Assembly (NCBI GenBank): GCA_037441475.1
Contig: JBBISB010000001.1
Span: forward strand, 366,418-398,417
Direction: 5' to 3'
Source of the DNA: Candidatus Iainarchaeum sp.
GTDB taxonomy: Archaea; Iainarchaeota; Iainarchaeia; Iainarchaeales; CSSED10-239
Length of the DNA stretch: 32,000 nt
Positions 1-19,815 of the stretch are shown one piece after another; position 1 is the stretch's first letter, and the number at the start of each line of letters is the position of its first letter. The notes beneath the pieces are model-generated. The model saw only the letters and a list, made by a program, of their open reading frames with translations, had not been told where the DNA came from and ran no database searches. The translations under genes were made by a program, and so were the position numbers.

Positions 1-913
1 TTTTATTTTGTTTTAGTAAATAATTATTTTTATTTTGCCTTTTTAGAAATCTTTTAACATTTGATTTTTTTAATCTTATGTTTGAAGGAAATACCTTATA
101 ACCTAAAAAATCAACACCTTTGCTTACTAAGTTAATATAAATTTTATTCTTTGGAACATCTAATAATAGTTCTTTACTTAAAAATAATTTAATTTTTCTT
201 CTAAAAACCTTTAAATCTTTTTTAGAGTTTGAAAATATTAAAAAATCATCAACATATCTATAATAAAGTTTAATTTTCAAAGTATGCTTAACATATTGAT
301 CTAATTGATTTAGATAAATATTTGCAAACAACTGAGAAGTTAAATTACCTATAGGAATTCCTTTTTCAGTATTATTTACATTAAAAGAATAACTATCAAT
401 TATTTGATATATTAGAGAAAGTAACCTTTCATCCTTAATTCTTTTTTTGATTATTCTTTTTAAAGTGGGTTTATGAACAGAAGGAAAGTATTTTTTAACA
501 TCTTGGTTTAAATAATATTTTGGAGGATTAGTGGTTTGAATGACATTTTTAATTTCAAAAAGGCCTTTATGTGTGCCTTTTCCTTTTCTGCAAGCAAAGG
601 AATTATTTATAAAAGTTTTATCAAAAATAGGTTCTATGATATTAATTATTGAATGTTGAACAACTACATCTCTAAAAGTTGGAGCACTAATAATTCTTTA
701 TTTAGGTTCATAAACTTTAAAACTTCTGTAAGGAGAAAATTGAAAATTTTCTGAAATTAATTGATCTTGTAATAAAAATAGCTCCTTTTCTAAATTTGTT
801 GTAAATTGCAAGACATATTTTTTATTAGGTGTTGATTTTTTTGCTTTTTTATAAGCATTAAAAAGATTTTTAAAAGAAGTAAACTCTTTCCAAAGGTTAT
901 TGTATGATTTCAT
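1..913 (-). CDS. DGR-type reverse transcriptase; 3' end cut by the window edge; one in-frame TAA at 698..700
   Basis: The minus-strand frame is open from the ATG (911..913) to base 2, apart from TAA at 698..700: ...FKVYEPK*RIISAPTFRDVVVQHSIINIIEPIFDKTF... The part after the stop has no Met, so the ORF track lists only 698..913. RT motifs read by hand: SFACRKGKGTHKG; GIPIGNLTSQLFANIYL (IGNLTSQ at 332..352, the [I/L]GxxxSQ signature of DGR RTs versus QGxxxSP in group II intron RTs); YRYVDDFLIF (YVDD at 245..256); VDFLGYKV. Confidence 0.8.
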
Positions 914-1150
914 TTTTAAAAAAACTTATTTAAAGTTAAAAGTTATTACAGATTTCTTTTTACAGACTATAAAAATACTAAATGTAATAACTTATCTTTA
1001 TATTTGATTTTTTAACATAAAAACAATAAAGTTTTTATGGCATACATCATATGCAATCAGGAAACATTTTACAGATGTAGTTTTTTAAAATATTCGCTTT
1101 ATATGTTTTTTTAAAAAAAACAAAAATATAACATATAAACTCTGATAAAA

Positions 1151-1172
1151 CCTTATTTCTTTAAAAATAAGG
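1151..1172 (-). other. Inverted repeat (8-bp stem, 6-nt loop) 5 nt downstream of the VR/stop codon
   Basis: The plus strand reads ccttattt-ctttaa-aaataagg, and the arms are perfect complements. It could be a DGR target-recognition hairpin or simply a terminator-like structure. Confidence 0.45.
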
Positions 1173-1177
1173 AGAAA

Positions 1178-2545
1178 CTACTGAACGCAGCGCAAGCCGA
1201 AGAAGTCGGTCCGGCTTGTAGGAATGTTGGTCAAGTTCAGGGACAAGACACCGGCACTAGAGTCATTGAGCCAGCGACCACCGCGCAAAAAAGCGTATAC
1301 AGTCTTACTTGTGTCATTTATATTACTATAAGTATAAAGCCTACCAACACCATTATTCGCATTATAACTATTACTTGTAAGTAAAAATAAATCTTTATAC
1401 TTTAAAGTAGTGTTACCTAAATTATCAGAATAAATATATTGGTTTCCTCCACCACCTTTTGAATAATCAAAAAAATTAAAGCCAGAAGTATAATTACTAT
1501 CATCAGAATTATTAAATCCATCAGGCTGGTCTTTTATTTGGATAGTATCACTAGTCCATTGCCAAACATTACCTGCTAAATCCCAAATTACCTCTCCATT
1601 AGTTAAAGTTAAAGTTCTTTTTGTAATTCCTGAAAGCTCGTCAAAACCGTCCATGGCCCTAGAGGATGATGAATTTCCTCTTGGAAGGTATCCTGAACCA
1701 ACTTCTCCACCAGACCAGTTGGAGGGAACTTGTTCAATATTTCTTACAATTGTCATCCATTCGTTATTAGTTATTAAATGACCACCGATAGCTTCACAAG
1801 CGGCTATTGCTTCGGTTTGGGTAATTCTTACTATTGGAGAGCCTTCTGGAGTGGACACTAAGGTTCCTGGTGTTGGACATAATTCATAATTATAAGTATT
1901 AGATGTTAAAGAACCAGTATTACAATTAGGATAATCAGCTACAAGATTTCCTTTGCCATCACCATTTACATCCATTTTCATCTGATATTTTGAAACACAA
2001 AAACCCCCTCTTTCATTCATTGTACCATAAAGGTGGTTTCCAGGAACAGGAATAAATCCTTCTGGACAAGAAGATGGATATTTAATATTTTGACGAAGAG
2101 AGGTTTTGGTTATCATTCTATCATTATCAAGGTAAAAAACAATATTTAAGTTGTCTTCTAAAATACCATGATCAATTACTGCTGTCTGGTTTGCAGTAAT
2201 TGTTACTGGTGGGTCTAATGGATTAATATTAGTATTTCCGTGCAAGGAATAACCAGTTATGGTTAAAGAGGTGAAAGGAGAACCATAAGGAGGATTATAC
2301 TCTAAAATAGTTCTGCCATTTATGGAATCTTTTACTTGCAAATAAAAAGAAGTTTCTGATTCTGTGTAAATATCAAGACTTGAGGTTTTACCTAAGGAAT
2401 CATTGGTAAAACCTTTTCCCCAAGAAACAATTATTGCAATAATAGCAACAGCAACAACTATTAAAAGAATGGTTGCAATTAATGGAGAAATTCCTTTCCT
2501 TTTTTTATTTTCCATTTGAAAAAAAATATTTGTATCTATACTCAT
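1178..2545 (-). CDS. DGR variable (target) protein: archaeal type IV pilin-like N-terminus plus FGE-sulfatase / C-type-lectin-fold domain with a C-terminal variable region
   Basis: The N-terminus KRKGISPLIATILLIVVAVAIIAIIVSWG matches the pilins at 29439..30950. The likely true start is ATG 2513..2515 (MENKKRKGISP). The C-terminal half has FGE-sulfatase landmarks: GFIPVPG...FCVSKYQM, ITQTEAIAACEAIGGHLITNNEWM, GNVWQWTSD, FLRGGRW and FGLRCVQ-stop. This is the usual scaffold that carries DGR variable regions. Confidence 0.85.
   Translation of the reverse strand: MSIDTNIFFQMENKKRKGISPLIATILLIVVAVAIIAIIVSWGKGFTNDSLGKTSSLDIYTESETSFYLQVKDSINGRTILEYNPPYGSPFTSLTITGYSLHGNTNINPLDPPVTITANQTAVIDHGILEDNLNIVFYLDNDRMITKTSLRQNIKYPSSCPEGFIPVPGNHLYGTMNERGGFCVSKYQMKMDVNGDGKGNLVADYPNCNTGSLTSNTYNYELCPTPGTLVSTPEGSPIVRITQTEAIAACEAIGGHLITNNEWMTIVRNIEQVPSNWSGGEVGSGYLPRGNSSSSRAMDGFDELSGITKRTLTLTNGEVIWDLAGNVWQWTSDTIQIKDQPDGFNNSDDSNYTSGFNFFDYSKGGGGNQYIYSDNLGNTTLKYKDLFLLTSNSYNANNGVGRLYTYSNINDTSKTVYAFLRGGRWLNDSSAGVLSLNLTNIPTSRTDFFGLRCVQ
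1181..1300 (-). other. Putative DGR variable region (VR); boundaries approximate
   Basis: These are the last ~40 codons of the target gene (YAFLRGGRWLNDSSAGVLSLNLTNIPTSRTDFFGLRCVQ). By hand count, 1181..1297 is about 55% GC with coding-strand A about 15%. The next 100 nt of the same gene (1301..1400) are about 25% GC with coding-strand A about 39%. The 3' end is GC-rich (ggcttgcgctgcgttcag), resembling an IMH element. Confidence 0.7.
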
Positions 2546-2555
2546 AAATGATCTA

Positions 2556-2600
2556 ACATAATATATATAAACATAATATATATAAACATAATATATATAA
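2556..2600. repeat. Three tandem copies of the 15-bp unit cataatatatataaa, plus a degenerate fourth copy to ~2618, upstream of the DGR target gene
   Basis: Unit starts are at 2556, 2571 and 2586 with an exact 15-nt period. On the minus strand each unit reads tttatatatattatg, which has a TTTATATA archaeal TATA-box-like core. Confidence 0.8.
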
Positions 2601-2682
2601 ACAAATTATATATATATAAGAAGATAATATTTATAAAGATATCTAAAGTAAATAAAACTAATAAGTTAAAAAAAAATAAAAA

Positions 2683-2886
2683 TTACTTAGTAATTTTTAC
2701 AAAATAATAAATATCTTTTCCGATACTTGAAAAATCAACCTTAACATTATTTACAGCCATTTTATCTAAAAAATCCTTATATGAAATACCAGCAATGTCT
2801 GCTACCTCTGATAAAGAAATACTTCTTATTTGATATGCTTTAAAAACTAACTTTAGATTTTTAGAGAATTTATTATTTATATCCAT
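2683..2886 (-). CDS. Small UPF0175-like HTH protein (antitoxin-like)
   Basis: 67 aa. SLSEVADIAGISYKDFLDKMAVNNVKV resembles the UPF0175 C-terminal helix-turn-helix. No obvious partner toxin is adjacent. Confidence 0.4.
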   Translation of the reverse strand: MDINNKFSKNLKLVFKAYQIRSISLSEVADIAGISYKDFLDKMAVNNVKVDFSSIGKDIYYFVKITK

Positions 2887-2996
2887 AAATATATTATTTA
2901 TAATAATCTTTTTAAAAGTGAGTAATTAATAAAAAGAAGTATTATATTATCTTCTCTATAATAGTATATAGAAAGAAATAATAAAAAAAGAAAAAC

Positions 2997-5111
2997 ATGT
3001 ATTCAAAAGAAGAAATTACAAAGAAGATACTTGACATTAACAAATACGAAAAACTAAACCCTATGCAAAACTTAGCAAAAGAACATATAGGGACAAACAC
3101 ACTTATCACAACACCAACAGCTTCTGGAAAAACAACAGTCTTTGAAATGTACATGCTTGACTGTTTATTAAACAAGAAAAAAAAAGCAATTTACATCTCT
3201 CCCTTAAAAGCATTAACAACAGAACATTATTTAGAAACTAAAAGAAAGTTTTCAAAAGAATTTAACCTAAAAATAGGACTTTCAACTGGAGACCTGGATT
3301 CAAGTAACAAATATCTTGAAAGTTATGATGTTTTATTTTTAACATATGAAAAATTTGATTCAATTCTAAGACATAAACCTTCATGGTTAAAAAATATTGG
3401 ACTTTTAACAATTGATGAAATTCATGAGCTTGGATCAAATAGAGGTTCAACCTTAGAAGTTATAATTACACAACTAAAACATAGCTATAGAGAAATTACT
3501 CTTCTAGGGTTATCTGCAACCATTAAAAACTCAAAAGAAATATCTGATTGGCTTTCTGCAAAACTAGTTTTAAGTAACTACCGACCAGTTCCTCTTGAAA
3601 CTGGAGTTTTTTATAATGATTCTATTTACTTTGAAGATAGAAAAGAAGACTTAACTTCTCTTACTGTTAAAAACATTAATTTAGGATCAATCATTAAAGA
3701 CACTTTAAAGAAAGAAAAACAAGCAATTGTTTTTTGTGCATCTAGAAAAAATGCAATGTCGTTTGCAAAAAAATATGGAAAAATAATCTCTGGAAGTTTA
3801 AAAGATGAAGAATACCAAAAACTTAGAAAAGCCTCTCAAGAGGTTTTAGAAGCTTTAGAACACCCAACAAAACAATGTGAAAAACTTTCTCTTTCTCTTT
3901 TAATGGGTTCAGCATTTCATCATGCAGGACTGGTCTATAAACAAAGAGAAGTGGTTGAAGAAAATTTTAAGAAAGGAAACATCAAAGTTATTTTTGCAAC
4001 ACCAACTCTTGCAGCTGGAATTAACCTACCAGCCTTTAGGGTGATTATAAACAGTGTTTTTAGATTTTCAGAAGGATCAATGGTTCCAATACCAGTTAAT
4101 GAATTTCAACAAATGGCAGGAAGAGCAGGAAGACCAAGGTATGATAAAAAAGGAGAGGCAATCTGTGTGGTTAACAAAGAAGGAGATATACCTAAGATAT
4201 ATAACACATATATAATATCTGGACCTTCAAACATAGACTCACAACTATCTAAAATAAACATCCTAAGAGGACATCTTTTATCAATGATTCTCATAAACAA
4301 CCTTAGGTCTTTAGAAGAAGTAATCTCTTATATTTCTAAAACATTTTATTATTTTGTTTATGGAAACACAAGTGAGATTAGAAAAAACATACAAGAGATT
4401 ATTTCTGAGTTTATTGGGTATGGTTTTTTAGAAAAGAAAGAAACTGGTTTTGAGATTACCTCTTTAGGTAAGAAAGTGTGTTATCTTTATATTGATCCTC
4501 TTTCAGCAAACAACATCTTAAAAGATTTAGACTTAAAGAAAGAGAAAGATACTAAGGTTTATGAAAAAATATTTACAGTTGTTAATACCTCTGAAATGGC
4601 GCCTTATCTTGTATACAAGCAAGAGAAAGAAAATGATTTGTTTGTTTTTTTTGAAGAGATTAGAAAGAACATTTATTTTGAATATGAGGATATTTATCTT
4701 TTACAAAAACTATATATGACAAAAATTATTCATGAGTGGATTGAAGAAAGAGAAGAAAATTCTTTACTTGAAGAATATAACACAACACCTGGACAGATTA
4801 GAGATATTATTTCAAGAGCAAAATGGATATGCCACTCTACAGTTGAGCTTTTAAAACATAGTAAAGCAAGCTTGATACCTATTAAAGAATATTCAAACCT
4901 TCTTTTAAGGATAAAGTATGGTATAAGAGAAGAGCTTGTTAATTTAGTTGAGATTAAAAATATTGGTAGGGTAAGGGCTAGAAGACTTTATAATAATGGT
5001 ATAAAGAGTGTAAATGATATTAAAAATAATCCAGATAGATTTATTACCTTGGTTGGAAAAATCGGTCTTGAGAGTTTAAAGGAACTTAAGATTGATTATG
5101 AGGAAAAATAA
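2997..5111 (+). CDS. hel308: Ski2-like DNA helicase Hel308
   Basis: 704 aa. Motif I TPTASGKT, motif II DEIH, LSATI, FHHAGL, ATPTLAAGINLPA and QMAGRAGRP are present. There is a C-terminal helix-hairpin-helix region, IKNIGRVRARRLYNNGIKSVNDI. Confidence 0.9.
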   Translation: MYSKEEITKKILDINKYEKLNPMQNLAKEHIGTNTLITTPTASGKTTVFEMYMLDCLLNKKKKAIYISPLKALTTEHYLETKRKFSKEFNLKIGLSTGDLDSSNKYLESYDVLFLTYEKFDSILRHKPSWLKNIGLLTIDEIHELGSNRGSTLEVIITQLKHSYREITLLGLSATIKNSKEISDWLSAKLVLSNYRPVPLETGVFYNDSIYFEDRKEDLTSLTVKNINLGSIIKDTLKKEKQAIVFCASRKNAMSFAKKYGKIISGSLKDEEYQKLRKASQEVLEALEHPTKQCEKLSLSLLMGSAFHHAGLVYKQREVVEENFKKGNIKVIFATPTLAAGINLPAFRVIINSVFRFSEGSMVPIPVNEFQQMAGRAGRPRYDKKGEAICVVNKEGDIPKIYNTYIISGPSNIDSQLSKINILRGHLLSMILINNLRSLEEVISYISKTFYYFVYGNTSEIRKNIQEIISEFIGYGFLEKKETGFEITSLGKKVCYLYIDPLSANNILKDLDLKKEKDTKVYEKIFTVVNTSEMAPYLVYKQEKENDLFVFFEEIRKNIYFEYEDIYLLQKLYMTKIIHEWIEEREENSLLEEYNTTPGQIRDIISRAKWICHSTVELLKHSKASLIPIKEYSNLLLRIKYGIREELVNLVEIKNIGRVRARRLYNNGIKSVNDIKNNPDRFITLVGKIGLESLKELKIDYEEK

Positions 5112-7957: not shown

Positions 7958-10507
7958 CTACCTATATCTTAAGAAAGCTCCAATTCCACCAAAGGTTTCA
8001 AAAAATTGTTTACCTTCTAAGGTTTCAACAGAGATTAGTTCAACCTTTGCATTTGTACTTTGAGAAACTTCTAAAAAATAATTATAAAGATCTACTTCTT
8101 CTACAAGCTCTGCCTTTACACCCTCACAATCTGAATTGGAATTTTCAAACTTTGAAATTGCATCTTCAACTTCATGTTTGTTTTTTACAACCTTTATAAA
8201 CCTTGATTTATCTGAAAGACATTTAAACTTTAAAATTGTCCAATCTAGGCCTTCTGAAACAATTATTGTAGATATTTTACCAATAGCTAAAGCATCCATA
8301 ACATCTTGAAAACCATAGGTTGCTAAGGAGTTTTTTGCAAGGTCTTCAAAAAATTTTGCAATTATTTTTCTTTCTTGAACTAAACCGGTTTCTCTTAAAA
8401 TTTCTTCGGATTTATCTAGAACTTCTTTAATACCTGATTCATCTGTGTAAGAGGTGTCAACTGTTCCTAAGATCTTATCCTTTAACCTGTGATCAAGATC
8501 ACCAATTTCTAAAAATTCATGTTTAGTAAGACCAGGACCGCCAACAATAATTCCCTTAAAATTATCAATACCTACAAAAGCAGTATTTACTTTTTCACCT
8601 ATTCTTTTATAAAATTCCTCTTCATACTTATCTCTTAGTCTTTCAAAACGATGTGCTGAATTATGGACAATTAAACCATTAGCTATAAAAGATTTATTTA
8701 TAACTGAAATATCAGTCATTGTAGTTTTCTTTTTTTCAATAGTTATAGAGTTTATTTTAGCACATAAGTAAGGAAGAGTATAAGATTTAGTTAATTCTTT
8801 TAAAAGAGATTTATCTTTAACATACTCTAGAATAGAACCTTTAAAACAAGACTTACTCATCATTCTATTATTATTAAAAAAATTACTAACCTTTGGAAAC
8901 ATTTCAAGATTATAACCTTTTCTTTCGATTACTTCTCTAACCTTTCTGCCATAAACAGGCAAGGTTCTTGAAAAACTCATTTCTGTTTTGCTTAATAATA
9001 TTTTTTTAATTTTGTTTTGTTTTTCTAAAGAAGTAAAATTAATATTCTTTTCAAAAGAAAAAATAGATTCTTTATCTGAAATAGAAATTACAAAACGATG
9101 ATTTTTTGTATAAGGATTTTTATTGTTATCATACTCTTGAAGAGAAGAAACTATTGCAAATCTAAATAAAGTTAATTGAAGTTGTTGTGCAAGCCTTTTA
9201 TTATTTATTCCAAGATCTATTGATTTTCTAGAAGCGTTAACATACCCTTCAGCATCGTATAGTCCTTTTAAAAAAGAAGCTAAAATCTTATTAGAAGAGG
9301 TTAATATCTTAGAAGGTATTAAAGAATCTCTTGCTTTTTTAATCTCTTTAAACTCCTCTTTAATTAACCTTACAAGAGCAGTTGAAGTAACTCTTAATTG
9401 ATAATAGTTTTTAGAACTTCTAAAAGTTAGAGAGGAATTGACATTAAAATATTTATCAAATAACTTTTTATACTCTAAAATAACCTCTTCTCTTGATTCA
9501 AAAAAAGTAACTCTATCTTTTTCAAGAGAACCATCTCCTAAAAGATAACCTATAAACTGAGAAAAAGTAGTATCAAGCTTTGAAGGTATTTTTATAGACG
9601 GTTTATTTAGTTTAGAAATATACTTTTTAGTTTCAAAAAAAGAATCTTTTGTTTTATAAGAAAGTTTTTCTGGAAATAATAAATAATCTTCTTTAGTAAG
9701 TTCTTTAGATGTTTTTTCAATAACTCCAGAAGGGGTTAATACAAAGAAGATATGGTCTTCACTTGCTTTAATTTCCATTCCAGGCGCTTTTGTTTTTATT
9801 GTATAGGTGGAATTTTTAATAACATCCCATTTTTTAATAACCTTAGAATCAATAAATTTATTATTTTTAAAATCCATGGAAGACAGGTTTGTTTTTGTAG
9901 AAATTTCATTAATATCTAATAAATCACCATTAGATAAAGAAACAAAGGAATCTTTTAAACATTGTCCCCCAGCCTTTGTCTTACCAGGAACATTTGAAGT
10001 TTCTGTAAAAATAATTTGTTTTGATTTACCTCTTAAGATAGCGACTGTAGCTTCTCGTTTATCCATAACAATTAAACCATACACATCATCTGTTTGAGCC
10101 ATATCCTCTAAAGGGTCTATATGGAAAGTTGAATCACACCAATAAAGCTTTGTGGTTAATCTGTTTGGTGGAACAATAATTAATAAAACAACATCTGATT
10201 TTGAAGGGTTTGTTGAAACATCTCCTGCAAATAAAACTAAACCAGTTGCAGGAAGTTTAAAATCAATTTGTTTTAAATAATTAATAATTCTTTTTAAAGC
10301 AGCTTGAACATTTTTTCTGGTCTGTGCACTCTTAATGTTTGCTGATTGACTCATTTCGTCTGTTAATTGTTTTATAGCTGTACTTCTGTCTGCGTCAGGT
10401 GGAAGATAAAGACTTATAAGCTGAGTTCCTTGCCCTTTATAGGTCTTTATGACTTTTACTTTTTTTTTTAAAAGCATTAAATTAGCATCATCCATAAAAA
10501 AACACAT
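7958..10507 (-). CDS. prf1: Peptide chain release factor aRF1, interrupted by an intein
   Basis: The N-extein contains KGQGTQLISLYLPP ... PGKTKAGGQ. The C-extein starts SAHRFERLRDKYEEEF and runs through typical aRF1 domain 3. The likely start is the ATG at 10493..10495 (MDDANL...). Confidence 0.95.
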   Translation of the reverse strand: MCFFMDDANLMLLKKKVKVIKTYKGQGTQLISLYLPPDADRSTAIKQLTDEMSQSANIKSAQTRKNVQAALKRIINYLKQIDFKLPATGLVLFAGDVSTNPSKSDVVLLIIVPPNRLTTKLYWCDSTFHIDPLEDMAQTDDVYGLIVMDKREATVAILRGKSKQIIFTETSNVPGKTKAGGQCLKDSFVSLSNGDLLDINEISTKTNLSSMDFKNNKFIDSKVIKKWDVIKNSTYTIKTKAPGMEIKASEDHIFFVLTPSGVIEKTSKELTKEDYLLFPEKLSYKTKDSFFETKKYISKLNKPSIKIPSKLDTTFSQFIGYLLGDGSLEKDRVTFFESREEVILEYKKLFDKYFNVNSSLTFRSSKNYYQLRVTSTALVRLIKEEFKEIKKARDSLIPSKILTSSNKILASFLKGLYDAEGYVNASRKSIDLGINNKRLAQQLQLTLFRFAIVSSLQEYDNNKNPYTKNHRFVISISDKESIFSFEKNINFTSLEKQNKIKKILLSKTEMSFSRTLPVYGRKVREVIERKGYNLEMFPKVSNFFNNNRMMSKSCFKGSILEYVKDKSLLKELTKSYTLPYLCAKINSITIEKKKTTMTDISVINKSFIANGLIVHNSAHRFERLRDKYEEEFYKRIGEKVNTAFVGIDNFKGIIVGGPGLTKHEFLEIGDLDHRLKDKILGTVDTSYTDESGIKEVLDKSEEILRETGLVQERKIIAKFFEDLAKNSLATYGFQDVMDALAIGKISTIIVSEGLDWTILKFKCLSDKSRFIKVVKNKHEVEDAISKFENSNSDCEGVKAELVEEVDLYNYFLEVSQSTNAKVELISVETLEGKQFFETFGGIGAFLRYR
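8660..9961 (-). mobile_element. Intein (434 aa) with a LAGLIDADG homing-endonuclease domain, inserted between GGQ and S of aRF1
   Basis: It starts with Cys (CLKDSFVSLSNGDLL, codon 9959..9961). Block B is SEDH. LAGLIDADG motifs are FIGYLLGDGSL and FLKGLYDAEGYV. It ends ...NGLIVHN (Asn codon 8660..8662), followed by the +1 Ser. Confidence 0.9.
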
Positions 10508-11573: not shown

Positions 11574-12587
11574 CTACTCTATAAGAGTAAAAGTAGCATA
11601 TACGTTTTTGGCAGTTGTCATATTATTAATAAAACACCACTCATCTGATACACTACTACAATCTCAGGACCAGGCTGTAAAAACACTACCAGGATTAGCA
11701 GTTGCCTTTATTGAGAAGGTAGATCCACATTGCATGTAAAATGTACAAGAACTATTATTACAACCAATCCACGGATAATTGTTAGATAAATTTCCCTGTC
11801 CACTACCAATAATATATGTTGTAAGAAGATAAGTTCTTACTCCAACTCTTAAATTAACAGTTTTATTACTATCCATTATAAGATTACAGGGGTTATTACC
11901 AGAACAAGCTCCACCCCAATTAGGAGTAAGTAAATAATAACAACCAGACGCGCTTCCAATTAAAGTTACGGTTGTATTTTCATTATAACTAATACATCCA
12001 GAACCGCAACTAGTTCCTGGAATACTACTATTTATGCCTATAGCCGCAGAATAATTAGAACTATAGTTTAAATTATATACTACATTGATTATGTAAGTTC
12101 TAGTTAATAAACCACTATCTTGATAATTATTTTTAAAAGCTTTAGCTCTTATTGTATAAGTTCCATTTGAAGATAAAGGTATAGGCGTACCATTATAAAC
12201 AGTACCAGTTGTAGACGTTGGATCAGAACCATTAATAGTATATCTTATTTCTGCACCAGATGTAGTTGTAGATAAAGTTACATTTTGATAAGAAGTATAA
12301 GTTCCGGCAGTAGGAGAACTTGTAAGAGTTGCAACAATAAAATTAAAAGTATTTAAGGTTATAACCACACTTGATTGATAACCAAATCTATAAGCTATGG
12401 CTTTTATTACTGTATTGTTAGTGTTTAAAATAATCGCAGTGCCTGGAGATATTTCTGTACCAATTGTTTCTGTTGGAGTAGTTCCATCTAAAGTATAACG
12501 TATCATTGAACTTGGAGTTGTTGTGTTTAAAGTTACAGATTGATCATTATTATAATTTCCGCCATTTAAACTAAAGGTTGGAAACAA
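11574..12587 (-). CDS. C-terminal segment of a large pilin-anchored adhesin; contains an in-frame TGA at 11664..11666
   Basis: It has two CHB_HEX_C/Fn3-associated-type repeats (…IRYTLDGTTPT…, …IRYTINGSDPT…) followed by two Cys-rich InlB-B-repeat-like modules. After TGA the frame continues DCSSVSDEWCFINNMTTAKNVYATFTLIE to TAG at 11574..11576, which completes the second module. Confidence 0.65.
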
Positions 12588-14298
12588 TTAAATTAATATT
12601 AAATAATTTTTCAATAACTGGGCTTATGGAATAACCAGGTGCATAACAAACAGCATTAATCGTTGTGGTGGTTATTAAATTTAAAACAGAAGAATAAATA
12701 TTACCAACATCTCTTGTTGGAATGGATCCATCTGTTGTGTACCTTATGGTGCTTGATGGAGTTGAACAACTTAAAGTAACAGAAACACTGTTAGTATGTA
12801 TTCCACCATTTGGTGAAAATAAAGGGATTACTGCAGGATCACTAATATTAAAGTTACCTTCAGCAACTGGGCTTGAAGACCAACCAGTTTTATAGACCCT
12901 TGCTTTTAAAGTTAAATTGTTTGAAACAAAAACACCTGAACCAGTATAAAGATTACTTGTTTCATTAGGATCAGTTCCATCAGTAGTATATCTTATAGTG
13001 TAAGGAGAGGGTGTGATTGTGTTAAGTAAAATAGATTGATTATTATAAGTTCCTGGAACCGGACTAAAGGTTGGATCTAATGCAGGAAGGGTAATGTTAT
13101 AATCTGCTTGAGAAACTATACTTGAAAAAGAACCAACATATGCTATTGTCTTTATAGTTTTACTTGAAGAAACATTAATTGGTCCAGAATAGATTGGACT
13201 TGTTTCTGTTGGATCAATACCAGTTGTTGTGTATCTTATGGTTGCACCTGCGTTACTGTTACTTAAAATTACATTCTGTATAGAGGTGTAAGTTCCACCT
13301 GGAGGAGTTATCGCCACAGGGTCTAATGGAACAAAGAAAGTATATGTAAATGTTGAAACTGAACTTGGAAGATAATTTAGTTTACAAGCAATTGCTTTAA
13401 TTGTAGTATCATTTAAAACTGTTATTGGAGAGGTGTACTCTGTAAAAACACCTGAACAATCAGGAGAGGAAGAATCTATAGTATAATAAATAACTGCATC
13501 TTGAGTTGTAGTTGACAAAGAAATATCAATTGGGTTTATTAAATTTATTTGATTTTCTAAACTTGACTCTACAGATGATACTGTGTAATAAGAAGAATTA
13601 TATGTACCTGATGAAAGGTTAGAAAAAAGAGAACCGGTAAAAGAAATAGCATTAATAGTTGTGCCAGCAGTAATTGATAAAGGAGAAATATATATGTTTG
13701 AAGATAAATTAGGATTACTTCCATCTAAAGTATAATAAATATTAAGAACAGGATCGGCAGAAGTTAAAGAAACTAACATAGGAAATTCAGATACATTATA
13801 TGTACCTGCAGGCGGGTCAAAAATTGGTCTCGAAACAATTGAAGTTTTTGGACCACTATCACTCCAATTAAAAGAATATCTAGAAGATCTTTTTACTTGA
13901 TTATTTTTAGATACTTCTATAGATAAGTAATAAGTATCTCCACAAAATAATTTGCCTAAATTTATACCAGATGCTATTAATCCAATTGTATTATTTGGAT
14001 TTAAATTATTCATATCCTGTAATTCAGTATTAGCAGTAACAATATAATCTAGATTTCCAACAACCTTATTACTGGAATCTTCTATTATTAAACTAAAAGT
14101 ACCTTCTTTAGATAATGGCTTCCAAGAAAAGGTTAAAAGCCCTTCTCTTATACCAGGAGGATCTATATATTCACAATTAAAATAATTTGCAGTTACTGAA
14201 ACGATAATAGGAGGTAAAGGTCCATCTGTAGAAGAAGCAATTTGATTCCCTTGAGTAGAAGCATTATCTCTTCCTTGCCCCCCGACCCCCCATTGATA
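12571..14298 (-). CDS. Middle segment of the same adhesin (five CHB_HEX_C-like beta-sandwich repeats)
   Basis: The ORF track starts at Met 14013, but the frame is open upstream to 14298 (YQWGVGGQGRDNASTQGNQIASSTDGPLPP...). It contains a repeated P.FSP.GGTY...V.L....IRYTTDG.DP signature. Confidence 0.7.
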   Translation of the reverse strand, partial: YQWGVGGQGRDNASTQGNQIASSTDGPLPPIIVSVTANYFNCEYIDPPGIREGLLTFSWKPLSKEGTFSLIIEDSSNKVVGNLDYIVTANTELQDMNNLNPNNTIGLIASGINLGKLFCGDTYYLSIEVSKNNQVKRSSRYSFNWSDSGPKTSIVSRPIFDPPAGTYNVSEFPMLVSLTSADPVLNIYYTLDGSNPNLSSNIYISPLSITAGTTINAISFTGSLFSNLSSGTYNSSYYTVSSVESSLENQINLINPIDISLSTTTQDAVIYYTIDSSSPDCSGVFTEYTSPITVLNDTTIKAIACKLNYLPSSVSTFTYTFFVPLDPVAITPPGGTYTSIQNVILSNSNAGATIRYTTTGIDPTETSPIYSGPINVSSSKTIKTIAYVGSFSSIVSQADYNITLPALDPTFSPVPGTYNNQSILLNTITPSPYTIRYTTDGTDPNETSNLYTGSGVFVSNNLTLKARVYKTGWSSSPVAEGNFNISDPAVIPLFSPNGGIHTNSVSVTLSCSTPSSTIRYTTDGSIPTRDVGNIYSSVLNLITTTTINAVCYAPGYSISPVIEKLFNINLIVSNL

Positions 14299-14401
14299 TT
14301 AAAATTGTAATAATAACTACAGCAATAAGCACTGCTCCACCAACCAATATCAAAGACTCTAGATTCCCTTGCCCCTTTGTTTTTTTAATCATATAATCCA
14401 T
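14264..14401 (-). CDS. N-terminal fragment of the adhesin: class III (type IV pilin-like) signal peptide
   Basis: 45 codons, below the ORF-track cutoff: MDYMIKKTKGQGNLESLILVGGAVLIAVVIITILISMGG... The frame is lost at the G-runs. Confidence 0.55.
   Translation of the reverse strand: MDYMIKKTKGQGNLESLILVGGAVLIAVVIITILISMGGRGARKR
14278..14291. repeat. C6-GA-C6 (G6-TC-G6 on the coding strand) homopolymer pair at the adhesin frameshift site
   Basis: The plus strand reads ccccccgacccccc. Removing one G would join the signal-peptide frame to the long adhesin frame. Confidence 0.8.
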
Positions 14402-14596
14402 GATAAATATAAAAATAAGTTACCGTAAACTATTTAATAGTTTCGAAAAATAAAATGTAAAGAGAAAGGTAGAAATTTAATCAAATATAAAAATTAATCC
14501 AAATATTAACATTTGCTCTTGTTTAAAATAAATTAAAATCAGTTACTTCTAAAAAAATATAATAGGTTTAAGATAGGTAGATAGTTTCTAAAAAAA

Positions 14597-16180
14597 TTAT
14601 AAAAAAGCATCAATATCCTTGTTTTTATCTTCTGCCTTTGAATAAAAATTCTTAGCAAGACCTGAAAGAGAGACATCTAAATGAGAATCTTTTGAATATT
14701 TTTTTCTAACCTTGAAAAAAACAGGGTATGAAGAGGCTTCACCAACAACCAAAGCCTCGCCTACTCTTAAGGAAGTTATCATCTCAACAGACTTAGAGTC
14801 AAGACCTTCTGAAGACTCACCTATATGTTTTAAATCATAGGGGTTTGTTATTCTTAGGATAATGTGAGTATTTGCTTGAGAGAGAATAGTTGTTGAAAGC
14901 TTTACTGGTCTTTGAGAGATTAGACAAAGACAAGAACCAAATTTTCTACCCTCTCTTGCTATTGTCTCTAAAATTGATTTTGCAAGAGCCTTATCTCTAG
15001 TTGCACTTTCAGGAGCAAACTGATGCGCTTCTTCAACAACTAAAAGGAAAGGAGGGACTTGATTTGTTCCTGCTGTTCTTGCGTAGAAAAGTTTATGTGC
15101 AAAGTAATAAAGTATTAATTGTTTTTTCTTTAAGTTAATCTCTCTTGAAAGATCAATAATGGTAAGCTTACCAGGCTTTACAATATCAAAGATTGAAGGA
15201 GAATCTATTTTTGAAAAAAAATTATAATCTAAAAGCTCTCCTAGGGCATTTACTAAAGGCTTTAAGATAGCCTCCTTAATATCTTGTTTTTCAAGCTCCT
15301 TTATAACATCCTTTAAATCAAAGGGACCTAAACCATTTTTCTTATCTTCATTTAATTTCTTTAAGATAGAACCTAGTTCGCGTTTTTGAGCTGAACTTAA
15401 GGAAGGGAGAAGAGAGGAAAAGAAATTAAGAGAGAGTGTTGAAACACCAATCTTTATTTCAAAAGAATTAATCTTCATTGTCTTTGAAGAATAGTCCTTA
15501 AAACCCTTATCTTGTTCTTTTAGGTTTTCAGAAAAATGAGAATATTCTCCATGAACATCAAAAAGTAAAACAGCAACTTGACCATCTTCTTTTTTTCTAT
15601 CTAATATCTCCTCTAACATAACAGAGGTTAAATAACTTTTACCAGAACCTGACTGTGCTAAAATAGCTAAGTGTTTTTGAAGTAAACGATCCATACAAAA
15701 AGTGACAGGAAGCTGTGGAAAGTCAATTTGTCCAAGAAATAAACCATTTTCTTTCAAATGTAAAAACTTAAACAAAACCTTTTCTTCACACATTAATACC
15801 TTTGAGCCTGGAGAAACTGGAAGAGTAGATCTTACAAAAAAACCATCTGTTGATAAAACCCCTAAAGGCTTTATGTTTCCTTGTAAAAACTCCCAATCGC
15901 TTGTTGGAAACTGTTCATTAATATCATAATCTGAGTTTTCAAACTCCTTAACAGACTCATTGTTTTCATAATACCTGTTTTGAGAAGAAACATCAGTTAC
16001 AAGACCAATTAATTTTCCTTGAGAATAATCTATTTGAACATACTGTCCCTTATAGACCTTTTTATTAGTGCACACAAAAGTGATCTTTGAAGTTGAGGGA
16101 GAATCTAGGCTTGAAATTACAATACCAAGCTCGTTTTCTTTAAAGACCATTTTCTTATAACACCTTTTTTTTATATACAA
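14597..16180 (-). CDS. herA: HerA-type (DUF87) hexameric ATPase/helicase
   Basis: 527 aa. Walker A is AILAQSGSGKSY and Walker B is FLLVVEEAHQFAP. The likely start is Met 11 (MVFKENELG, about 16150). Confidence 0.85.
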   Translation of the reverse strand: MYIKKRCYKKMVFKENELGIVISSLDSPSTSKITFVCTNKKVYKGQYVQIDYSQGKLIGLVTDVSSQNRYYENNESVKEFENSDYDINEQFPTSDWEFLQGNIKPLGVLSTDGFFVRSTLPVSPGSKVLMCEEKVLFKFLHLKENGLFLGQIDFPQLPVTFCMDRLLQKHLAILAQSGSGKSYLTSVMLEEILDRKKEDGQVAVLLFDVHGEYSHFSENLKEQDKGFKDYSSKTMKINSFEIKIGVSTLSLNFFSSLLPSLSSAQKRELGSILKKLNEDKKNGLGPFDLKDVIKELEKQDIKEAILKPLVNALGELLDYNFFSKIDSPSIFDIVKPGKLTIIDLSREINLKKKQLILYYFAHKLFYARTAGTNQVPPFLLVVEEAHQFAPESATRDKALAKSILETIAREGRKFGSCLCLISQRPVKLSTTILSQANTHIILRITNPYDLKHIGESSEGLDSKSVEMITSLRVGEALVVGEASSYPVFFKVRKKYSKDSHLDVSLSGLAKNFYSKAEDKNKDIDAFL

Positions 16181-16201
16181 AAATTATTTTAAATATACAA
16201 A

Positions 16202-17008
16202 TCATCTAATATAGTTTGAAGGAGCGGAAGGAGCATCTTGCTTTTGAGAAAGTTCTTCTAAGTTTTTAGAAATTTCACTAAAGGACTGTTCTATCTTCTT
16301 TGCACTCTCATCTATTTTTTTAAGATTAACATTTAATTTAAAAATATTTATTAAAACCTCTATAAGTTGTTTAGCAGAAGATGGATCTCCATAAGTAAGC
16401 TTACTGTTAGTTTCTCCCATTAAACAAATACCAGGTATTTTGTGGTGTGTAAAGGAAACACCTAAAAGAAGACCAGCAACTCCTGATATTAAAGCATCTT
16501 GACCTTTATCTTGGAAGAAAAGATTATTTACTTTTTTCTTTTCTAAAGCTTGTTTTGTTTTAATATCTGTTGCAACAGAAATTACTCTTGGTTTAGAAGT
16601 TATTCTTTTATCTCCTATATTAAGACCTGCAAAGGTATATATTTCCTTAACCTTATGTTTCTTTGCAAAAGAAGCTATGCTTTCTGAAAACTCATAATGT
16701 TGGTTACTGTTTAAGATATTACCTAGGGCAGGTTGAACTGGTCCTGCTACGAATAAAAAATCTTGCTTTGCTGTCTTGTATAAGTAAATCTCATCATAGA
16801 TAAGCTCTAGAACTGAGTTTTTTTCATGAACTGCAGGTGGGAAGGAATCAGAATAGATTTTTCCAACTAAAACTGGTTTTGGAGTTAGTTCTTTAATCAA
16901 GTAATCAACAGTTATTTTTCCAACCAAGCCAATACCAGGAAGCCCTACAAAAAGAACAGGATTTTTTAAAGTTTTTAAAGGTTTTATAATCTCAATAGTT
17001 GTAACCAT
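16202..17008 (-). CDS. PAC2-family (proteasome assembly chaperone-like) protein
   Basis: 268 aa. The N-terminal LFVGLPGIGLVGKITVDYLI loop and overall layout resemble PAC2/COG1938 proteins. It ends with TGA. Confidence 0.6.
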   Translation of the reverse strand: MVTTIEIIKPLKTLKNPVLFVGLPGIGLVGKITVDYLIKELTPKPVLVGKIYSDSFPPAVHEKNSVLELIYDEIYLYKTAKQDFLFVAGPVQPALGNILNSNQHYEFSESIASFAKKHKVKEIYTFAGLNIGDKRITSKPRVISVATDIKTKQALEKKKVNNLFFQDKGQDALISGVAGLLLGVSFTHHKIPGICLMGETNSKLTYGDPSSAKQLIEVLINIFKLNVNLKKIDESAKKIEQSFSEISKNLEELSQKQDAPSAPSNYIR

Positions 17009-17039
17009 ATTTATTTCACCATCTTTATTTTAATAAAAT

Positions 17040-17804
17040 TTATTTTTCTTCCTTCTTTAAAACCTCAAAATGTGCCTTCTTCTTTAAGGCTTTTGAGATG
17101 CTTGCTGTTATTTCATCAAATTTTTTTGCAGATTGTTTAAATTCCTTAGAGGTTACTTTAAGTTCATATTTTCCTGGACCAAAGTAAGTTATCTTTGAAT
17201 CTGGGTTTTTATCTTGAACATCAACTAATACTTTTTTAATACTTTCAAAACCACCGGACTCATCTGAAGTTATTGTCATTATGCCTACAATATCCTTGTC
17301 TTTAATAGTTATGTTTTTATCTAAAATTTCAAATAAAAGTTTATGATATTTTTTATCAATCTCAGGATAGTAATCTCCACCGTGCTTTAAAATGTTTAAA
17401 AAACCCTTATAAAGAGAGTTTTCTCTTTCAATGATTGGATTTGCAACATCCTCCCATATCTTATCAGGTGTAACATCTATTTCTTTTGCAATAACTGTTA
17501 AAAGACTTTGAGCTCTTAAAAATAACCTATATTCAGAAATTTTTCTTTTCTCATCTGCATCAGTTATTCTACTAAAAGAAATGTCAATATGTTTCTTTTC
17601 TTCATCAACCTTTAAGACCTTTGCTGCTCTTATCTGGTTTTGTTTAACATGGTTGTGGATGTTTTTAATCCAGGTAGAGGATATCTGGGAGATGTGTACA
17701 AAACCCTCCATGTTATCATACTCTAAAAGTTCTACAAAAACACCAAAATCAGTTATTTTTGAAACCTTACAAATTACTACATCATTTATGTTTGGAAAAT
17801 CCAT
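17040..17804 (-). CDS. eif2a: Translation initiation factor aIF2 alpha subunit
   Basis: 254 aa. The N-terminal S1 domain is VICKVSKITDFGVFVELLEYDNMEGFVHISQIS, followed by helical and alpha-beta domains of typical size. Confidence 0.9.
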   Translation of the reverse strand: MDFPNINDVVICKVSKITDFGVFVELLEYDNMEGFVHISQISSTWIKNIHNHVKQNQIRAAKVLKVDEEKKHIDISFSRITDADEKRKISEYRLFLRAQSLLTVIAKEIDVTPDKIWEDVANPIIERENSLYKGFLNILKHGGDYYPEIDKKYHKLLFEILDKNITIKDKDIVGIMTITSDESGGFESIKKVLVDVQDKNPDSKITYFGPGKYELKVTSKEFKQSAKKFDEITASISKALKKKAHFEVLKKEEK

Positions 17805-17823
17805 TAATTATCAACTCTTTTCT

Positions 17824-19636: not shown

Positions 19637-19697
19637 AAATATATATTATTCAAAATATATAAAAAGTATGTTATTTTAGTAAAGAAGAAGGTATTTA

Positions 19698-19796
19698 TAT
19701 AAATTCTTTCCCTTAATAAAGAGTTCTCGCTATAAACTCTTTCTTCTAAAAAAGAATAATTAGTATAAACCCTTTCCTTTAGGAAAGAGTTTTTTT
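19698..19796. repeat. Three tandem imperfect 33-bp repeats between the rad50 stop and the priS start
   Basis: Units start at 19698, 19731 and 19764: tataaattctttcccttaataaagag.., tataaactctttcttctaaaaaagaa.., tataaaccctttcctttaggaaagag.. The shared core is TATAAA-nn-CTTTC-n(7)-AAAGA, and copy 3 contains the dyad ctttcc/ggaaag. Confidence 0.75.
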
Positions 19797-19815
19797 AAAC
19801 AACTTTATAAAAACC

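What the first reader, a model, noticed from the sequence alone, without database searches (positions are those of the whole stretch)
1..2545. Diversity-generating retroelement aimed at a pilin-anchored lectin-fold surface protein in an archaeal genome
Two co-oriented minus-strand genes form a DGR-like pair. The first is an RT with the DGR-specific motif IGNLTSQ plus YVDD. The second is a target ORF whose C-terminus has the canonical VR scaffold of FGE-sulfatase/C-type-lectin-fold DGR targets (GNVWQWTSD ... FLRGGRW ... FGLRCVQ-stop). The target N-terminus is an archaeal type IV pilin signal/anchor (KGISPLIATILLIVVAV). The hypervariable ligand-binding domain would therefore be displayed on, or built into, a pilus-like fibre. 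DGRs have been reported from metagenomic DPANN/nanoarchaeal genomes. However, a pilin-fused target, no Avd-like ORF and no TR between target and RT depart from the canonical target-avd-TR-RT layout.
Basis: partly seen in the sequence, partly recalled or inferred. Interest (0 to 1): 0.85.

Follow-up and report, generated by a model that had tools for sequence, protein, structure and literature searches.

The report
Collapsed, dead archaeal diversity-generating retroelement
This is the remnant of a diversity-generating retroelement in a small DPANN archaeon: recombination between its two repeats removed the template and a helper gene, and the reverse transcriptase has a stop codon, so the pilin-like lectin-fold surface protein it once diversified now carries a frozen variable tip.

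Summary
The RT is a DGR-type enzyme: its best solved relative is the Bordetella phage bRT (E 2.9e-52). The 455-aa target has an archaeal type IV pilin N-terminus, a beta-sandwich, and a C-type-lectin/FGE-fold domain that best matches the DGR variable proteins TaqVP and Mtd.

However, the element is not a working DGR. In syntenic relatives (Ca. Forterrea multitransposorum and allies) the order is target(VR), 128-aa ORF, Avd, TR, 262-nt spacer, RT. Those VR/TR pairs differ almost only at TR adenines, and population variants differ only in the VR.

In the window, the single repeat has VR-type codons at the adenine-derived variable sites. It is followed directly by the flank and spacer that follow the TR in relatives. 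This indicates a ~1.2-kb VR×TR recombination that deleted Avd, the 128-aa ORF and one repeat.

The RT also has a GAA→TAA nonsense codon (window 698-700), confirmed in an independent assembly.

No TR or Avd lies within ~54 kb, and no Avd of this family was found on the contig.

Verdict: an ordinary, decayed member of a known system. The pilin-fused target family is the more interesting by-product.

The parts
1..913 (-). DGR-type reverse transcriptase pseudogene. The window holds the first 304 codons; the frame ends 98 nt beyond the window edge, 336 codons in all.
   Evidence: Best PDB match is Bordetella phage bRT 8ub7_A, E 2.9e-52 over residues 2-330, against 2e-23 for group II intron RTs. IGNLTSQ is at 332-352 and YVDD at 245-256. 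It is 87.5% identical to the intact 338-aa RT of the Ca. Forterrea cassette.
698..700 (-). In-frame TAA nonsense codon in the RT (codon 72). It aligns with the P of YEPKPR in bRT and with GAA (Glu) in relatives.
   Evidence: The same 71-aa truncated product is encoded on an independent Logan contig, SRR11582163_21764, which is 100% identical over 2,710 bp.
914..1177 (-). 264-nt spacer of the kind that lies between TR and RT in intact relatives (DGR RNA spacer region). It begins with the hairpin CTCCTTATTTTTAAAGAAATAAGG.
   Evidence: It is colinear with the TR-to-RT spacers of L003 and L006, with 90% mean column identity, and with seven distinct spacers. It folds with z = -4.1. One hairpin shows a compensatory change among relatives.
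1178..1295 (-). Single hybrid repeat. It has VR-type (mutated) bases at 16-17 of the 30-31 positions that are adenines in relatives' TRs. Its 5' side is the target ORF and its 3' side is the TR-type flank.
   Evidence: L001 9945-11371 aligns to the L003 target+VR, and L001 11251-12657 aligns to L003 TR+spacer+RT. The two alignments overlap exactly on this repeat. The repeat reaches 59% GC in a ~28% GC genome.
1178..2545 (-). Former DGR target gene (455 aa): pilin-like N-terminus, beta-sandwich, and CLec/FGE-fold domain with the VR at the C-terminus.
   Evidence: AlphaFold model: pLDDT 88.7, pTM 0.84. Foldseek top hits are TaqVP 5vf4 (E 7.7e-9) and Mtd 1yu4 (E 2.7e-6). dN/dS against L003, excluding the VR, is 0.16.
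2408..2500 (-). Archaeal type IV pilin / class III signal N-terminal domain of the target (residues 16-46).
   Evidence: TIGR02537, E 7e-6, above its cutoff. Pyrobaculum type IV pilus subunit 8fk7_A matches by sequence (E 0.0036) and by fold (E 1.1e-4). The N-terminus is near-identical to that of the short pilin gene at 29973-30455.
1181..2068 (-). CLec/FGE-sulfatase-fold domain (residues ~160-455).
   Evidence: PF03781, 40.8 bits against a cutoff of 23.3. Fold matches to DGR variable proteins and to FGEs.
1..4842 (.). The part of a perfect 6,351-bp tandem duplication that lies in the window. The second, identical copy of target+RT lies to the left of the window.
   Evidence: 0 mismatches; junction. 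The Logan contig ends exactly at the duplication junction.
29439..30950 (-). Three tandem short pilin genes (147, 160 and 153 aa). Their N-terminal domains are paralogous to the target's. Context only; not part of the retroelement.
   Evidence: (family D1: 61%, 65% and 83% nt identity of the three copies over 99 nt).

Best explanation
The locus is a collapsed, inactive diversity-generating retroelement in a Forterrea-like DPANN archaeon.

Inferred ancestral state, as still seen at the syntenic locus of relatives: target gene ending in the VR; a VR 3' flank carrying a conserved GC-rich element; a 128-aa ORF; Avd; the TR; a ~262-nt structured spacer; the RT. In that state, adenine-mutagenic reverse transcription of TR RNA rewrote the ligand-binding tip of a pilin-anchored C-type-lectin-fold surface protein.

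In the window's lineage, homologous recombination between the two ~120-nt direct repeats removed about 1.2 kb. The crossover fell in the last ~26 nt, which are identical in VR and TR. The lost segment held the VR 3' flank, the 128-aa ORF, Avd and one repeat. What remains is one hybrid repeat with VR-type codons, joined to the TR's downstream spacer and the RT. With no template and no Avd, the VR is frozen.

The RT then, or independently, acquired a GAA-to-TAA nonsense codon. The target gene itself is intact and under purifying selection, so it presumably still works as a surface or pilus adhesin with a fixed specificity.

Shown directly: the anatomy, the colinearity with relatives, the adenine-specific imprint and the nonsense codon. 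Inferred: the recombination mechanism, the order of events and the pilus display.
For: 1. DGR identity.
- The RT's best solved relative is BPP-1 bRT.
- The target model best matches the DGR variable proteins TaqVP and Mtd.

2. Intact orthologous cassettes. L003/L008 (Ca. Forterrea CP045477.1, same gene neighbourhood), L015, L006, L011 and L016 all have target, 128/131-aa ORF, bAvd, TR, RT.
- Their VR/TR mismatches fall at TR adenines: 12-20 at A sites against 0-1 at non-A sites.
- Within-population protein variants differ only in the VR.

3. Collapse.
- Every VR in an intact cassette is followed by TTTTTGAAAAAATG... or TTTTTAGAAAAAAT.... Every TR is followed by TTTCTCCTTATT...AATAAGG plus the spacer.
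- The window repeat has VR-type bases at 16-17 of 30-31 A sites, yet it carries the TR-type flank and spacer.
- Blastn shows the two alignment blocks overlapping on the repeat.
- The distance from target stop to RT start is 264 nt, against ~1,490 nt in L003.
- The conserved post-VR element GAGACGGCAAGACGG is absent from the window.

4. Missing components.
- No TR-like repeat or GC island other than the repeat itself, other stretches of the target gene, weak (≤49% GC) blips and tRNAs in window + L001 + L002, ~54 kb in all.
- No Avd or 128-aa ORF by tblastn.
- No Avd-family member on the 671,531-bp contig in the 10 closest Avd clusters.
- No second close RT or target from that contig.

5. RT nonsense codon: confirmed independently.

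6. Drift in the repeat. It differs from all relatives' TRs at 8 TR-invariant non-adenine sites, mostly GC-to-AT changes. VRs of intact cassettes differ at 0-1 such sites.
Against: - The whole 671-kb genome could not be scanned for a TR. The genome is not in the searchable genome collection.
- RT dN/dS against L003 is 0.18, no higher than for intact pairs. RT inactivation must therefore be recent. This sits awkwardly with 8 non-adenine changes in the repeat, unless the lost TR of this lineage already differed at those sites.
- Short-read assemblers can create the same VR-to-TR-flank join. Contig L022 from assembly NPIE01 shows the join, while a separate 962-bp contig from the same assembly carries a 131-aa ORF plus avd. 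L009 is a ~5x-coverage mosaic contig.
- The sequencing technology behind GCA_964526055.1 is unknown to me.
- The independent Logan contig starts exactly after the last variable position. This implies population heterogeneity upstream of that point, which a single old clonal collapse does not predict.
Confidence: 0.8

Rival explanations
1. Assembly artefact. The real genome holds an intact cassette (target-VR, 128-aa ORF, Avd, TR, spacer, RT). The assembler jumped from VR to the TR flank through their identical 3' block and dropped ~1.2 kb.
For: VR and TR share a 26-27-nt identical 3' block. The same join appears in a 2.4-kb contig of a fragmented assembly that also holds a separate 962-bp contig carrying a 131-aa ORF plus avd. 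It also appears in a low-coverage mosaic contig.
Against: - The window comes from a 671,531-bp contig that resolves a perfect 6,351-bp tandem duplication, with the collapsed structure in both copies. That points to long-read support, and long reads would span 1.2 kb.
- No avd of this family was recovered from this assembly or from SRR11582163 among the clusters checked.
- Logan contigs of intact cassettes run straight through the TR (L025, L029). The Logan contig of this organism instead breaks at the repeat's last variable position, as contigs do at a VR.
- The RT nonsense codon is independent of the join.
Confidence: 0.12
2. One reading: a working DGR with a non-canonical layout. Its TR and Avd lie elsewhere in the genome and diversify this pilin-fused target in trans.
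For: Relatives carry two DGR loci per genome with nearly identical TRs, so action in trans is conceivable in this family. The full genome was not scanned for a TR. The heterogeneity implied at the repeat in the Logan assembly could reflect ongoing variation.
Against: - The local RT is truncated at codon 72.
- The VR has lost its own 3' flank and the conserved post-VR element found in all intact cassettes.
- No other close RT, Avd or target paralogue from the 671,531-bp contig appears in the protein searches.
- The repeat carries 8 non-adenine differences from the family TR.
Confidence: 0.05
3. Self-templating single-repeat DGR. After the fusion, the VR is co-transcribed with the spacer and serves as its own template, so diversification continues without a master copy.
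For: The fused repeat sits exactly where the TR sits relative to the conserved, structured spacer and the RT. The Logan contig breaks right after the last variable position, as expected if the repeat is still heterogeneous in the population. RT dN/dS is not relaxed.
Against: - The RT has a nonsense codon and Avd is absent. In the reconstituted BPP-1 system, inactivating bRT, Avd or TR reduces retrohoming readout to ~1e-9 (PMC12875486).
- Adenines at the variable sites are not depleted: about 45% are retained, within the 35-60% range seen in VRs of intact cassettes.
- The two duplicated copies are identical.
Confidence: 0.03

Closest known systems
The DGR at the syntenic locus of Candidatus Forterrea multitransposorum (CP045477.1; loci L003/L008), and sister cassettes L015, L006 and L016
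   Same: Same gene neighbourhood: eRF1 with intein, TruD, Hel308-like helicase and UPF0175 upstream; FKBP and proteasome downstream. The target is 81% identical and the RT 87.5% identical. The spacer and the VR scaffold are the same.
   Different: The Forterrea cassette is complete: 128-aa ORF, Avd (named 'diversity-generating retroelement protein Avd' by NCBI), a TR with 12 adenine-specific mismatches, and an intact 338-aa RT. The window lacks the ~1.2 kb between VR and TR and has a nonsense codon in the RT.
Bordetella phage BPP-1 DGR (Mtd, Avd, TR, bRT)
   Same: The RT is the closest solved homologue (8ub7, E 2.9e-52). The target shares Mtd's CLec/FGE-type fold with the VR at the C-terminus. 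Relatives show the same adenine-specific TR-to-VR pattern.
   Different: The host is a cellular archaeon. The target is pilin-anchored rather than a phage tail-fibre protein. Intact relatives carry an extra 128-131-aa ORF between target and avd. The window copy has no TR or Avd and a broken RT.
DPANN and nanoarchaeal DGRs with CLec-fold variable proteins (Paul et al. 2015 and 2017; AvpA, Handa et al. 2016, PMC5006420)
   Same: [quoted passage not shown]
   Different: I found no mention of an archaeal type IV pilin N-terminal domain on a DGR target in the papers I could search or read. Paul et al. 2017 was not available to me. The window copy is a decayed remnant.
DGR-diversified type V pilus adhesins of Bacteroides (bioRxiv 10.1101/2024.11.15.621889)
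   Same: A hypervariable DGR target that forms part of a pilus or fibre.
   Different: The pilus system, domain of life and anchoring module are all unrelated: type V pili in that case, an archaeal type IV pilin-like N-terminus here. I cite that paper only from its abstract.
Thermus aquaticus variable protein TaqVP (PDB 5vf4)
   Same: Best structural match to the predicted target model (Foldseek E 7.7e-9).
   Different: Sequence identity is 16-19%. It has no pilin N-terminus. The global TM-score is low (0.33-0.39) because the domain arrangements differ.

Membership tests
Diversity-generating retroelement (functional cassette) | Reverse transcriptase of the DGR clade, with the [I/V/L]GxxxSQ motif and YxDD | tested here: met
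   IGNLTSQ at 332-352 and YVDD at 245-256. Best PDB hit is BPP-1 bRT, 181 bits, against 86 bits for group II RTs. The closest homologues sit in cassettes with TR/VR pairs.
Diversity-generating retroelement (functional cassette) | Intact RT open reading frame | tested here: not met
   TAA at 698-700 where relatives have GAA. The same truncation is present in an independent Logan contig. The 120 closest homologues listed are nearly all full-length, ~320-380 aa, apart from a few fragments on short contigs.
Diversity-generating retroelement (functional cassette) | A TR/VR pair of near-identical repeats whose mismatches are at TR adenines | tested here: not met
   There is only one repeat in the window plus about 22 kb beyond it. 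The feature is met in relatives. The rest of the 671-kb contig could not be scanned.
Diversity-generating retroelement (functional cassette) | Accessory protein Avd (or an equivalent) | tested here: not met
   tblastn with two Avd proteins found only a weak hit (E 0.006). It lies inside a TP_methylase ORF at 28311-28634 and I dismissed it. No member of the 10 closest Avd clusters lies on the 671,531-bp contig.
Diversity-generating retroelement (functional cassette) | VR with its own 3' cis elements (IMH-type flank) | tested here: not met
   The VR-type 3' flank and the conserved GAGACGGCAAGACGG element of intact cassettes have been replaced by the TR-type flank.
Diversity-generating retroelement (functional cassette) | VR located in the C-terminal CLec-fold domain of the target, with variable codons of AAY type in the TR | tested here: met
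   PF03781 hit. The model matches TaqVP and Mtd. The window repeat differs from relatives' TRs at 16-17 of 30-31 adenine sites, in the same AAC/AAT codons.
Archaeal type IV pilin-like proteins (class III signal peptide) | N-terminal K/R-G/A cleavage motif followed by a hydrophobic helix | tested here: met
   TIGR02537, 25.4 bits against a cutoff of 20. PF07790 scored only 19 bits against a cutoff of 25.2. The model has a helix at residues 21-53. 8fk7_A matches by sequence and by fold. The N-terminus is near-identical to that of a short pilin paralogue in the window.
Archaeal type IV pilin-like proteins (class III signal peptide) | Processing by a prepilin peptidase and incorporation into a filament | not testable with these tools
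I did not look for a pilus assembly ATPase or peptidase in the genome.
FGE-sulfatase / C-type-lectin fold | Domain match above the curated threshold, and a matching fold | tested here: met
   PF03781, 40.8 bits against a cutoff of 23.3, covering a partial profile (positions 87-195 of 255). Foldseek hits to many FGE structures at E ~1e-4.

The most novel reading that the evidence does not exclude
The VR-TR fusion might not be a dead end. The fused repeat sits exactly where the TR sits, upstream of the conserved spacer and the RT. It could act as its own template, giving a 'master-less' DGR that random-walks its own adenines. The RT function would have to come from read-through or from a non-mutant subpopulation. 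The apparent heterogeneity of the repeat in an independent assembly (the Logan contig breaks right after the last variable base) would then be its trace.
Probability: 0.03. Interest if true: 0.8.

Novelty: new member of a known kind. Interest (0 to 1): 0.35.

Why it matters
As a DGR, the locus is ordinary and no longer works. Two by-products have some value.

1. It gives a clean, sequence-level example of how a DGR can die. Recombination between VR and TR excises Avd and one repeat, and fixes whatever variant the target carried at that moment. I did not find this route described in the papers I could search.

2. It exposes a large family of proteins (more than 900 database hits) that combine an archaeal type IV pilin N-terminus with a DGR-type CLec domain. 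Some relatives carry a bacterial pilin N_methyl motif instead. In relatives with intact cassettes the tip is actively diversified. This makes a concrete hypothesis testable: ultra-small episymbiotic archaea may display hypervariable adhesins on pilus-like fibres for host attachment.

Tried and rejected
- **TR search in the window.** I scanned the window with an adenine-tolerant ungapped scan and with the repeat finder. Only self-matches came back.
- **GC-rich islands as TR candidates.** Apart from the repeat itself, the islands found were other stretches of the target gene, a few weak (≤49% GC) blips, and three tRNA-Ser genes in L002.
- **Genome-wide TR scan.** It found the Forterrea cassettes, but the window's genome is not in that collection, so the test could not be completed.
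- **Weak Avd hit.** tblastn with Avd hit window 28311-28634 at E 0.006. The hit lies in frame inside a TP_methylase (diphthine-synthase-like) ORF, so I rejected it.
- **Rfam on 1-3000.** Nothing meaningful.
- **Independent recurrence of the collapse.** I first took L009 and L022 as independent biological repeats of the collapse. I downgraded both. L022's assembly also holds a separate contig carrying a 131-aa ORF plus avd. L009 is a ~5x-coverage mosaic contig.
- **Stop-codon reassignment.** I rejected this as an explanation for the TAA. The other genes in the window read normally under the standard code.
- **Retron, group II intron or DRT identity for the RT.** I rejected these. All such models score far below their cutoffs and far below the bRT match.
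- **Literature.** Searches for pilin-fused archaeal DGR targets and for VR/TR recombination found nothing specific. Paul et al. 2017 was not available.
Full report
**1. What is in the sequence**

Window 1-2545 holds two minus-strand genes.

- The RT frame starts at 913 and leaves the window at base 1. In the source contig it ends 98 nt further on, for 336 codons in all.
Gene callers therefore report a 71-aa and a 142-aa fragment.
- The 264 nt between the target stop and the RT start are AT-rich and contain no ORF and no repeat of the VR.

**2. Identity of the two proteins**

RT:
- PF00078, E 1.4e-22.
- The best solved relative is the Bordetella phage BPP-1 DGR RT (8ub7_A, E 2.9e-52, residues 2-330). 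Group II intron RTs score 2e-23 or worse.
- Retron, DRT and group II models all fall far below their cutoffs.
- The nonsense codon aligns with the P of YEPKPR in bRT.

Target:
- PF03781 FGE-sulfatase, above cutoff.
- TIGR02537 archaellin/type IV pilin N-terminal domain, above cutoff.
- An AlphaFold model built from 74 homologues is confident: pLDDT 88.7, pTM 0.84. It shows an N-terminal helix (21-53), a beta-sandwich (about 60-155) and a large C-terminal domain.
- Foldseek ranks the DGR variable proteins TaqVP (5vf4, E 7.7e-9) and Mtd (1yu4, E 2.7e-6) first. Next comes the Pyrobaculum archaeal type IV pilus subunit 8fk7 for the N-terminus, then many formylglycine-generating enzymes.
- The N-terminal 40 residues are almost the same as those of a 160-aa pilin gene at 29973-30455. 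That gene is one of three tandem short pilins in the window.

**3. Source and relatives**

An exact protein look-up places the window on NCBI GCA_964526055.1, contig CAZGHU010000001.1 (671,531 bp). The gene content is archaeal: eRF1 with an intein, PCNA, GINS, primase, proteasome, tRNA-intron endonuclease. The closest named relative is Candidatus Forterrea multitransposorum (Iainarchaeota, DPANN).

Target homologues number more than 900. Contexts of the closest ones were fetched.
- At the syntenic locus of Forterrea (L003) and of GCA_015657875.1 (L015), and at a second locus (L006, L016), the order is: target, a conserved 128-131-aa ORF, bAvd (109 aa), about 450 nt of non-coding DNA, then an intact RT of 336-343 aa.
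- The non-coding stretch contains a TR. Across five cassettes, 12-20 mismatches to the VR fall at TR adenines and 0-1 elsewhere.
- Proteins of one 90% cluster, taken from different samples, differ only in the VR.

These relatives therefore carry working, canonical DGRs. NCBI already names their Avd 'diversity-generating retroelement protein Avd'.

**4. What happened in the window**

In every intact cassette the two repeats have distinct 3' flanks.
- The VR is followed by TTTTTGAAAAAATG... or TTTTTAGAAAAAAT..., and then a conserved GAGACGGCAAGACGG element.
- The TR is followed by TTTCTCCTTATT...AATAAGGTTTTATCAGAG and a 260-276-nt spacer that runs to the RT start.

The window's single repeat (1178-1295) combines features of both.
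- It has mutated, VR-type bases at 16-17 of the 30-31 TR-adenine positions, within the range of ordinary VRs.
- It is followed by the TR-type flank and spacer. This stretch is colinear with the relatives' spacers all the way to the RT ATG (90% mean column identity).
- Blastn against L003 gives two blocks: target+VR, and TR+spacer+RT. Both cover the window's one repeat.
- The post-VR element is absent.
- tblastn finds no Avd or 128-aa ORF in the window or in the 22 kb beyond it.

The simplest reading is a ~1.2-kb deletion by recombination between the direct repeats VR and TR. The crossover would lie in the last ~26 nt, because every variable codon up to TTC-TTC is VR-type.

**5. More signs of decay**

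- The RT stop is a single change, GAA to TAA, relative to the three closest cassettes.
- The same truncated product is encoded on an independent Logan contig (SRR11582163_21764), which is 100% identical over 2,710 bp.
- The repeat differs from all relatives' TRs at 8 TR-invariant non-adenine sites, mostly GC-to-AT changes. VRs of intact cassettes differ at 0-1 such sites. This fits a VR that is no longer refreshed from a TR.
- Downstream of the RT, an 86-aa ORF is the C-terminal remnant of a DUF4143 ATPase that is full-length in Forterrea.
- The target itself looks functional: dN/dS is 0.16 against L003 outside the VR.

**6. Is there a TR or Avd elsewhere?**

About 54 kb around the locus (window, L001, L002) has none. 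The single genome-collection scan showed that this genome is not in that collection, so the rest of the contig could not be searched at the DNA level.

At the protein level:
- The 10 closest Avd clusters have no member on the 671,531-bp contig.
- The closest RT clusters contain only the 71-aa fragment from it.
- No second target paralogue from it appears.

I therefore rate a trans-acting partner as unlikely, but not excluded.

**7. Caveats**

- *Assembly artefact.* The same VR-to-TR-flank join occurs in two other contigs, L009 and L022. L022's assembly also holds a 962-bp contig carrying a 131-aa ORF plus avd. L009 is a ~5x-coverage mosaic contig. Short-read assemblers can evidently produce this join, so I do not count these two as independent biological events.
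- *Why I think the window's join is real.* The contig resolves a perfect 6,351-bp tandem duplication, with the collapsed structure in both copies, which suggests long-read support. Logan contigs of intact cassettes run through the TR, whereas this organism's Logan contig breaks exactly after the last variable base, as contigs do at a VR. No avd was found from this sample among the clusters checked. I give the artefact reading about 0.12.
- *Timing.* RT dN/dS is 0.18, not elevated, so the RT died recently. This fits poorly with 8 drift-like changes in the repeat, unless the lost TR of this lineage already differed at those sites.
- *Heterogeneity.* The break point of the Logan contig implies at least two sequence variants just upstream of the TR-type flank in that sample. 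I cannot explain this without the reads.

**8. Comparison with what is known, and novelty**

DGRs with CLec-fold targets are well documented in DPANN archaea (PMC5006420, PMC5758913, PMC6349945, PMC8144416). The window adds a decayed member.

I found no description of a VR×TR collapse, or of an archaeal pilin N-terminus on a DGR target, in the literature I could search. The key survey, Paul et al. 2017, was not available to me. Database annotators already label homologues 'flagellin-like' or 'type IV pilin N-terminal domain-containing'. Pilus-associated DGR targets are known for Bacteroides type V pili.

**9. Verdict**

- Observation: confirmed.
- Interpretation: partly supported. This is a DGR-derived locus with a pilin-fused CLec target in a DPANN archaeon. 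It is a collapsed, inactive remnant, not a working element with a novel layout.
- Interest: modest, 0.35.
- Novelty: a new member of a known kind.

Noticed in passing
window 1-4842 and beyond the left edge (L001 7704-14054 = 14055-20405): A perfect 6,351-bp tandem duplication. It covers the 3' part of the helicase gene, UPF0175, the target, the RT pseudogene, the ATPase remnant, FKBP and the first ~60 nt of the proteasome gene. The junction has essentially no microhomology. An independent Logan contig ends exactly at the junction, so the junction seems to exist in reads. A circular 6.35-kb form would produce the same junction.
   Followed up: partly
L019 (Logan SRR11582163_21764) = L001 11346-14055, i.e. 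window 1200 leftwards: The independent contig starts at the base immediately after the last adenine-derived variable position of the repeat. This implies sequence heterogeneity upstream of the TR-type flank in that sample. The cause could be different VR alleles, or a mixture of collapsed and intact alleles.
   Followed up: partly
window 29439-29882, 29973-30455, 30489-30950 (minus strand): Three tandem short pilin genes (147, 160 and 153 aa). Their N-terminal ~35 residues closely match the target's N-terminus (the three copies are 61%, 65% and 83% identical at nucleotide level over 99 nt). They are possible major pilins of the fibre that the target might join.
   Followed up: partly
window 7958-10507 (minus strand): The eRF1 gene is interrupted by an intein with a LAGLIDADG homing-endonuclease domain. 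The same arrangement is present in Ca. Forterrea.
   Followed up: no
window 11664-12587 and 12571-14013 (minus strand): Two overlapping ORFs (307 and 480 aa) full of CHB_HEX_C_1/Fn3_assoc repeats with a ~250-nt period. They may be one surface-protein gene split by a frameshift.
   Followed up: no
window 2555-2614: A 15-nt tandem repeat, AACATAATATATATA, in three copies directly upstream of the target start codon. It may be part of the promoter region. In Forterrea, an IS element sits upstream of the orthologous target.
   Followed up: no
L003 7681-8067, L006 7627-8022, L015 6679-7065, L016 6591-6986: A conserved 128-131-aa ORF with no Pfam match lies between target and avd in every intact cassette of this family (80-85% identity between cassettes). 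It may be an extra DGR accessory gene. It is deleted in the window.
   Followed up: no
L003 7423-7437, L006 7406-7420, L015 6439-6453 and others: A conserved GC-rich element, GAGACGGCAAGACGG, made of repeated AGACGG units, lies ~45 nt downstream of the VR in intact cassettes. It is a candidate target-recognition (IMH-associated) element. It is absent from the window.
   Followed up: partly
window 914-1177 and the TR-RT spacers of L003, L006, L009, L010, L015, L023: The 260-276-nt spacer between TR and RT is more conserved than the flanking genes. It folds well (z = -4.1). One hairpin shows a compensatory change (GCAUAU...AUGUAUGC against GCACAU...AUGUGUGC). It is probably the structured spacer region of the DGR RNA.
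   Followed up: partly
proteins P0110, P0113-P0116: Some homologues of the target's CLec domain carry the bacterial type IV pilin N_methyl motif (PF07963) in place of the archaeal pilin N-terminus. Pilin-fused CLec proteins may therefore also exist in bacteria, possibly CPR.
   Followed up: no
L033 5001-5329 (JGI Ga0100378_1000002, 663 kb): In a sister genome the avd gene is split by a 1-nt deletion in an A-run and is otherwise identical to L006 avd. This is either another decay event or a homopolymer sequencing error.
   Followed up: partly
L001 12817-13077 (left of the window): An 86-aa ORF downstream of the RT is the C-terminal remnant of a DUF4143 AAA ATPase (40% identity to residues 339-421). 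That ATPase is full-length (421 aa) at the Forterrea locus, where a HicAB pair also follows. Both are missing here.
   Followed up: partly
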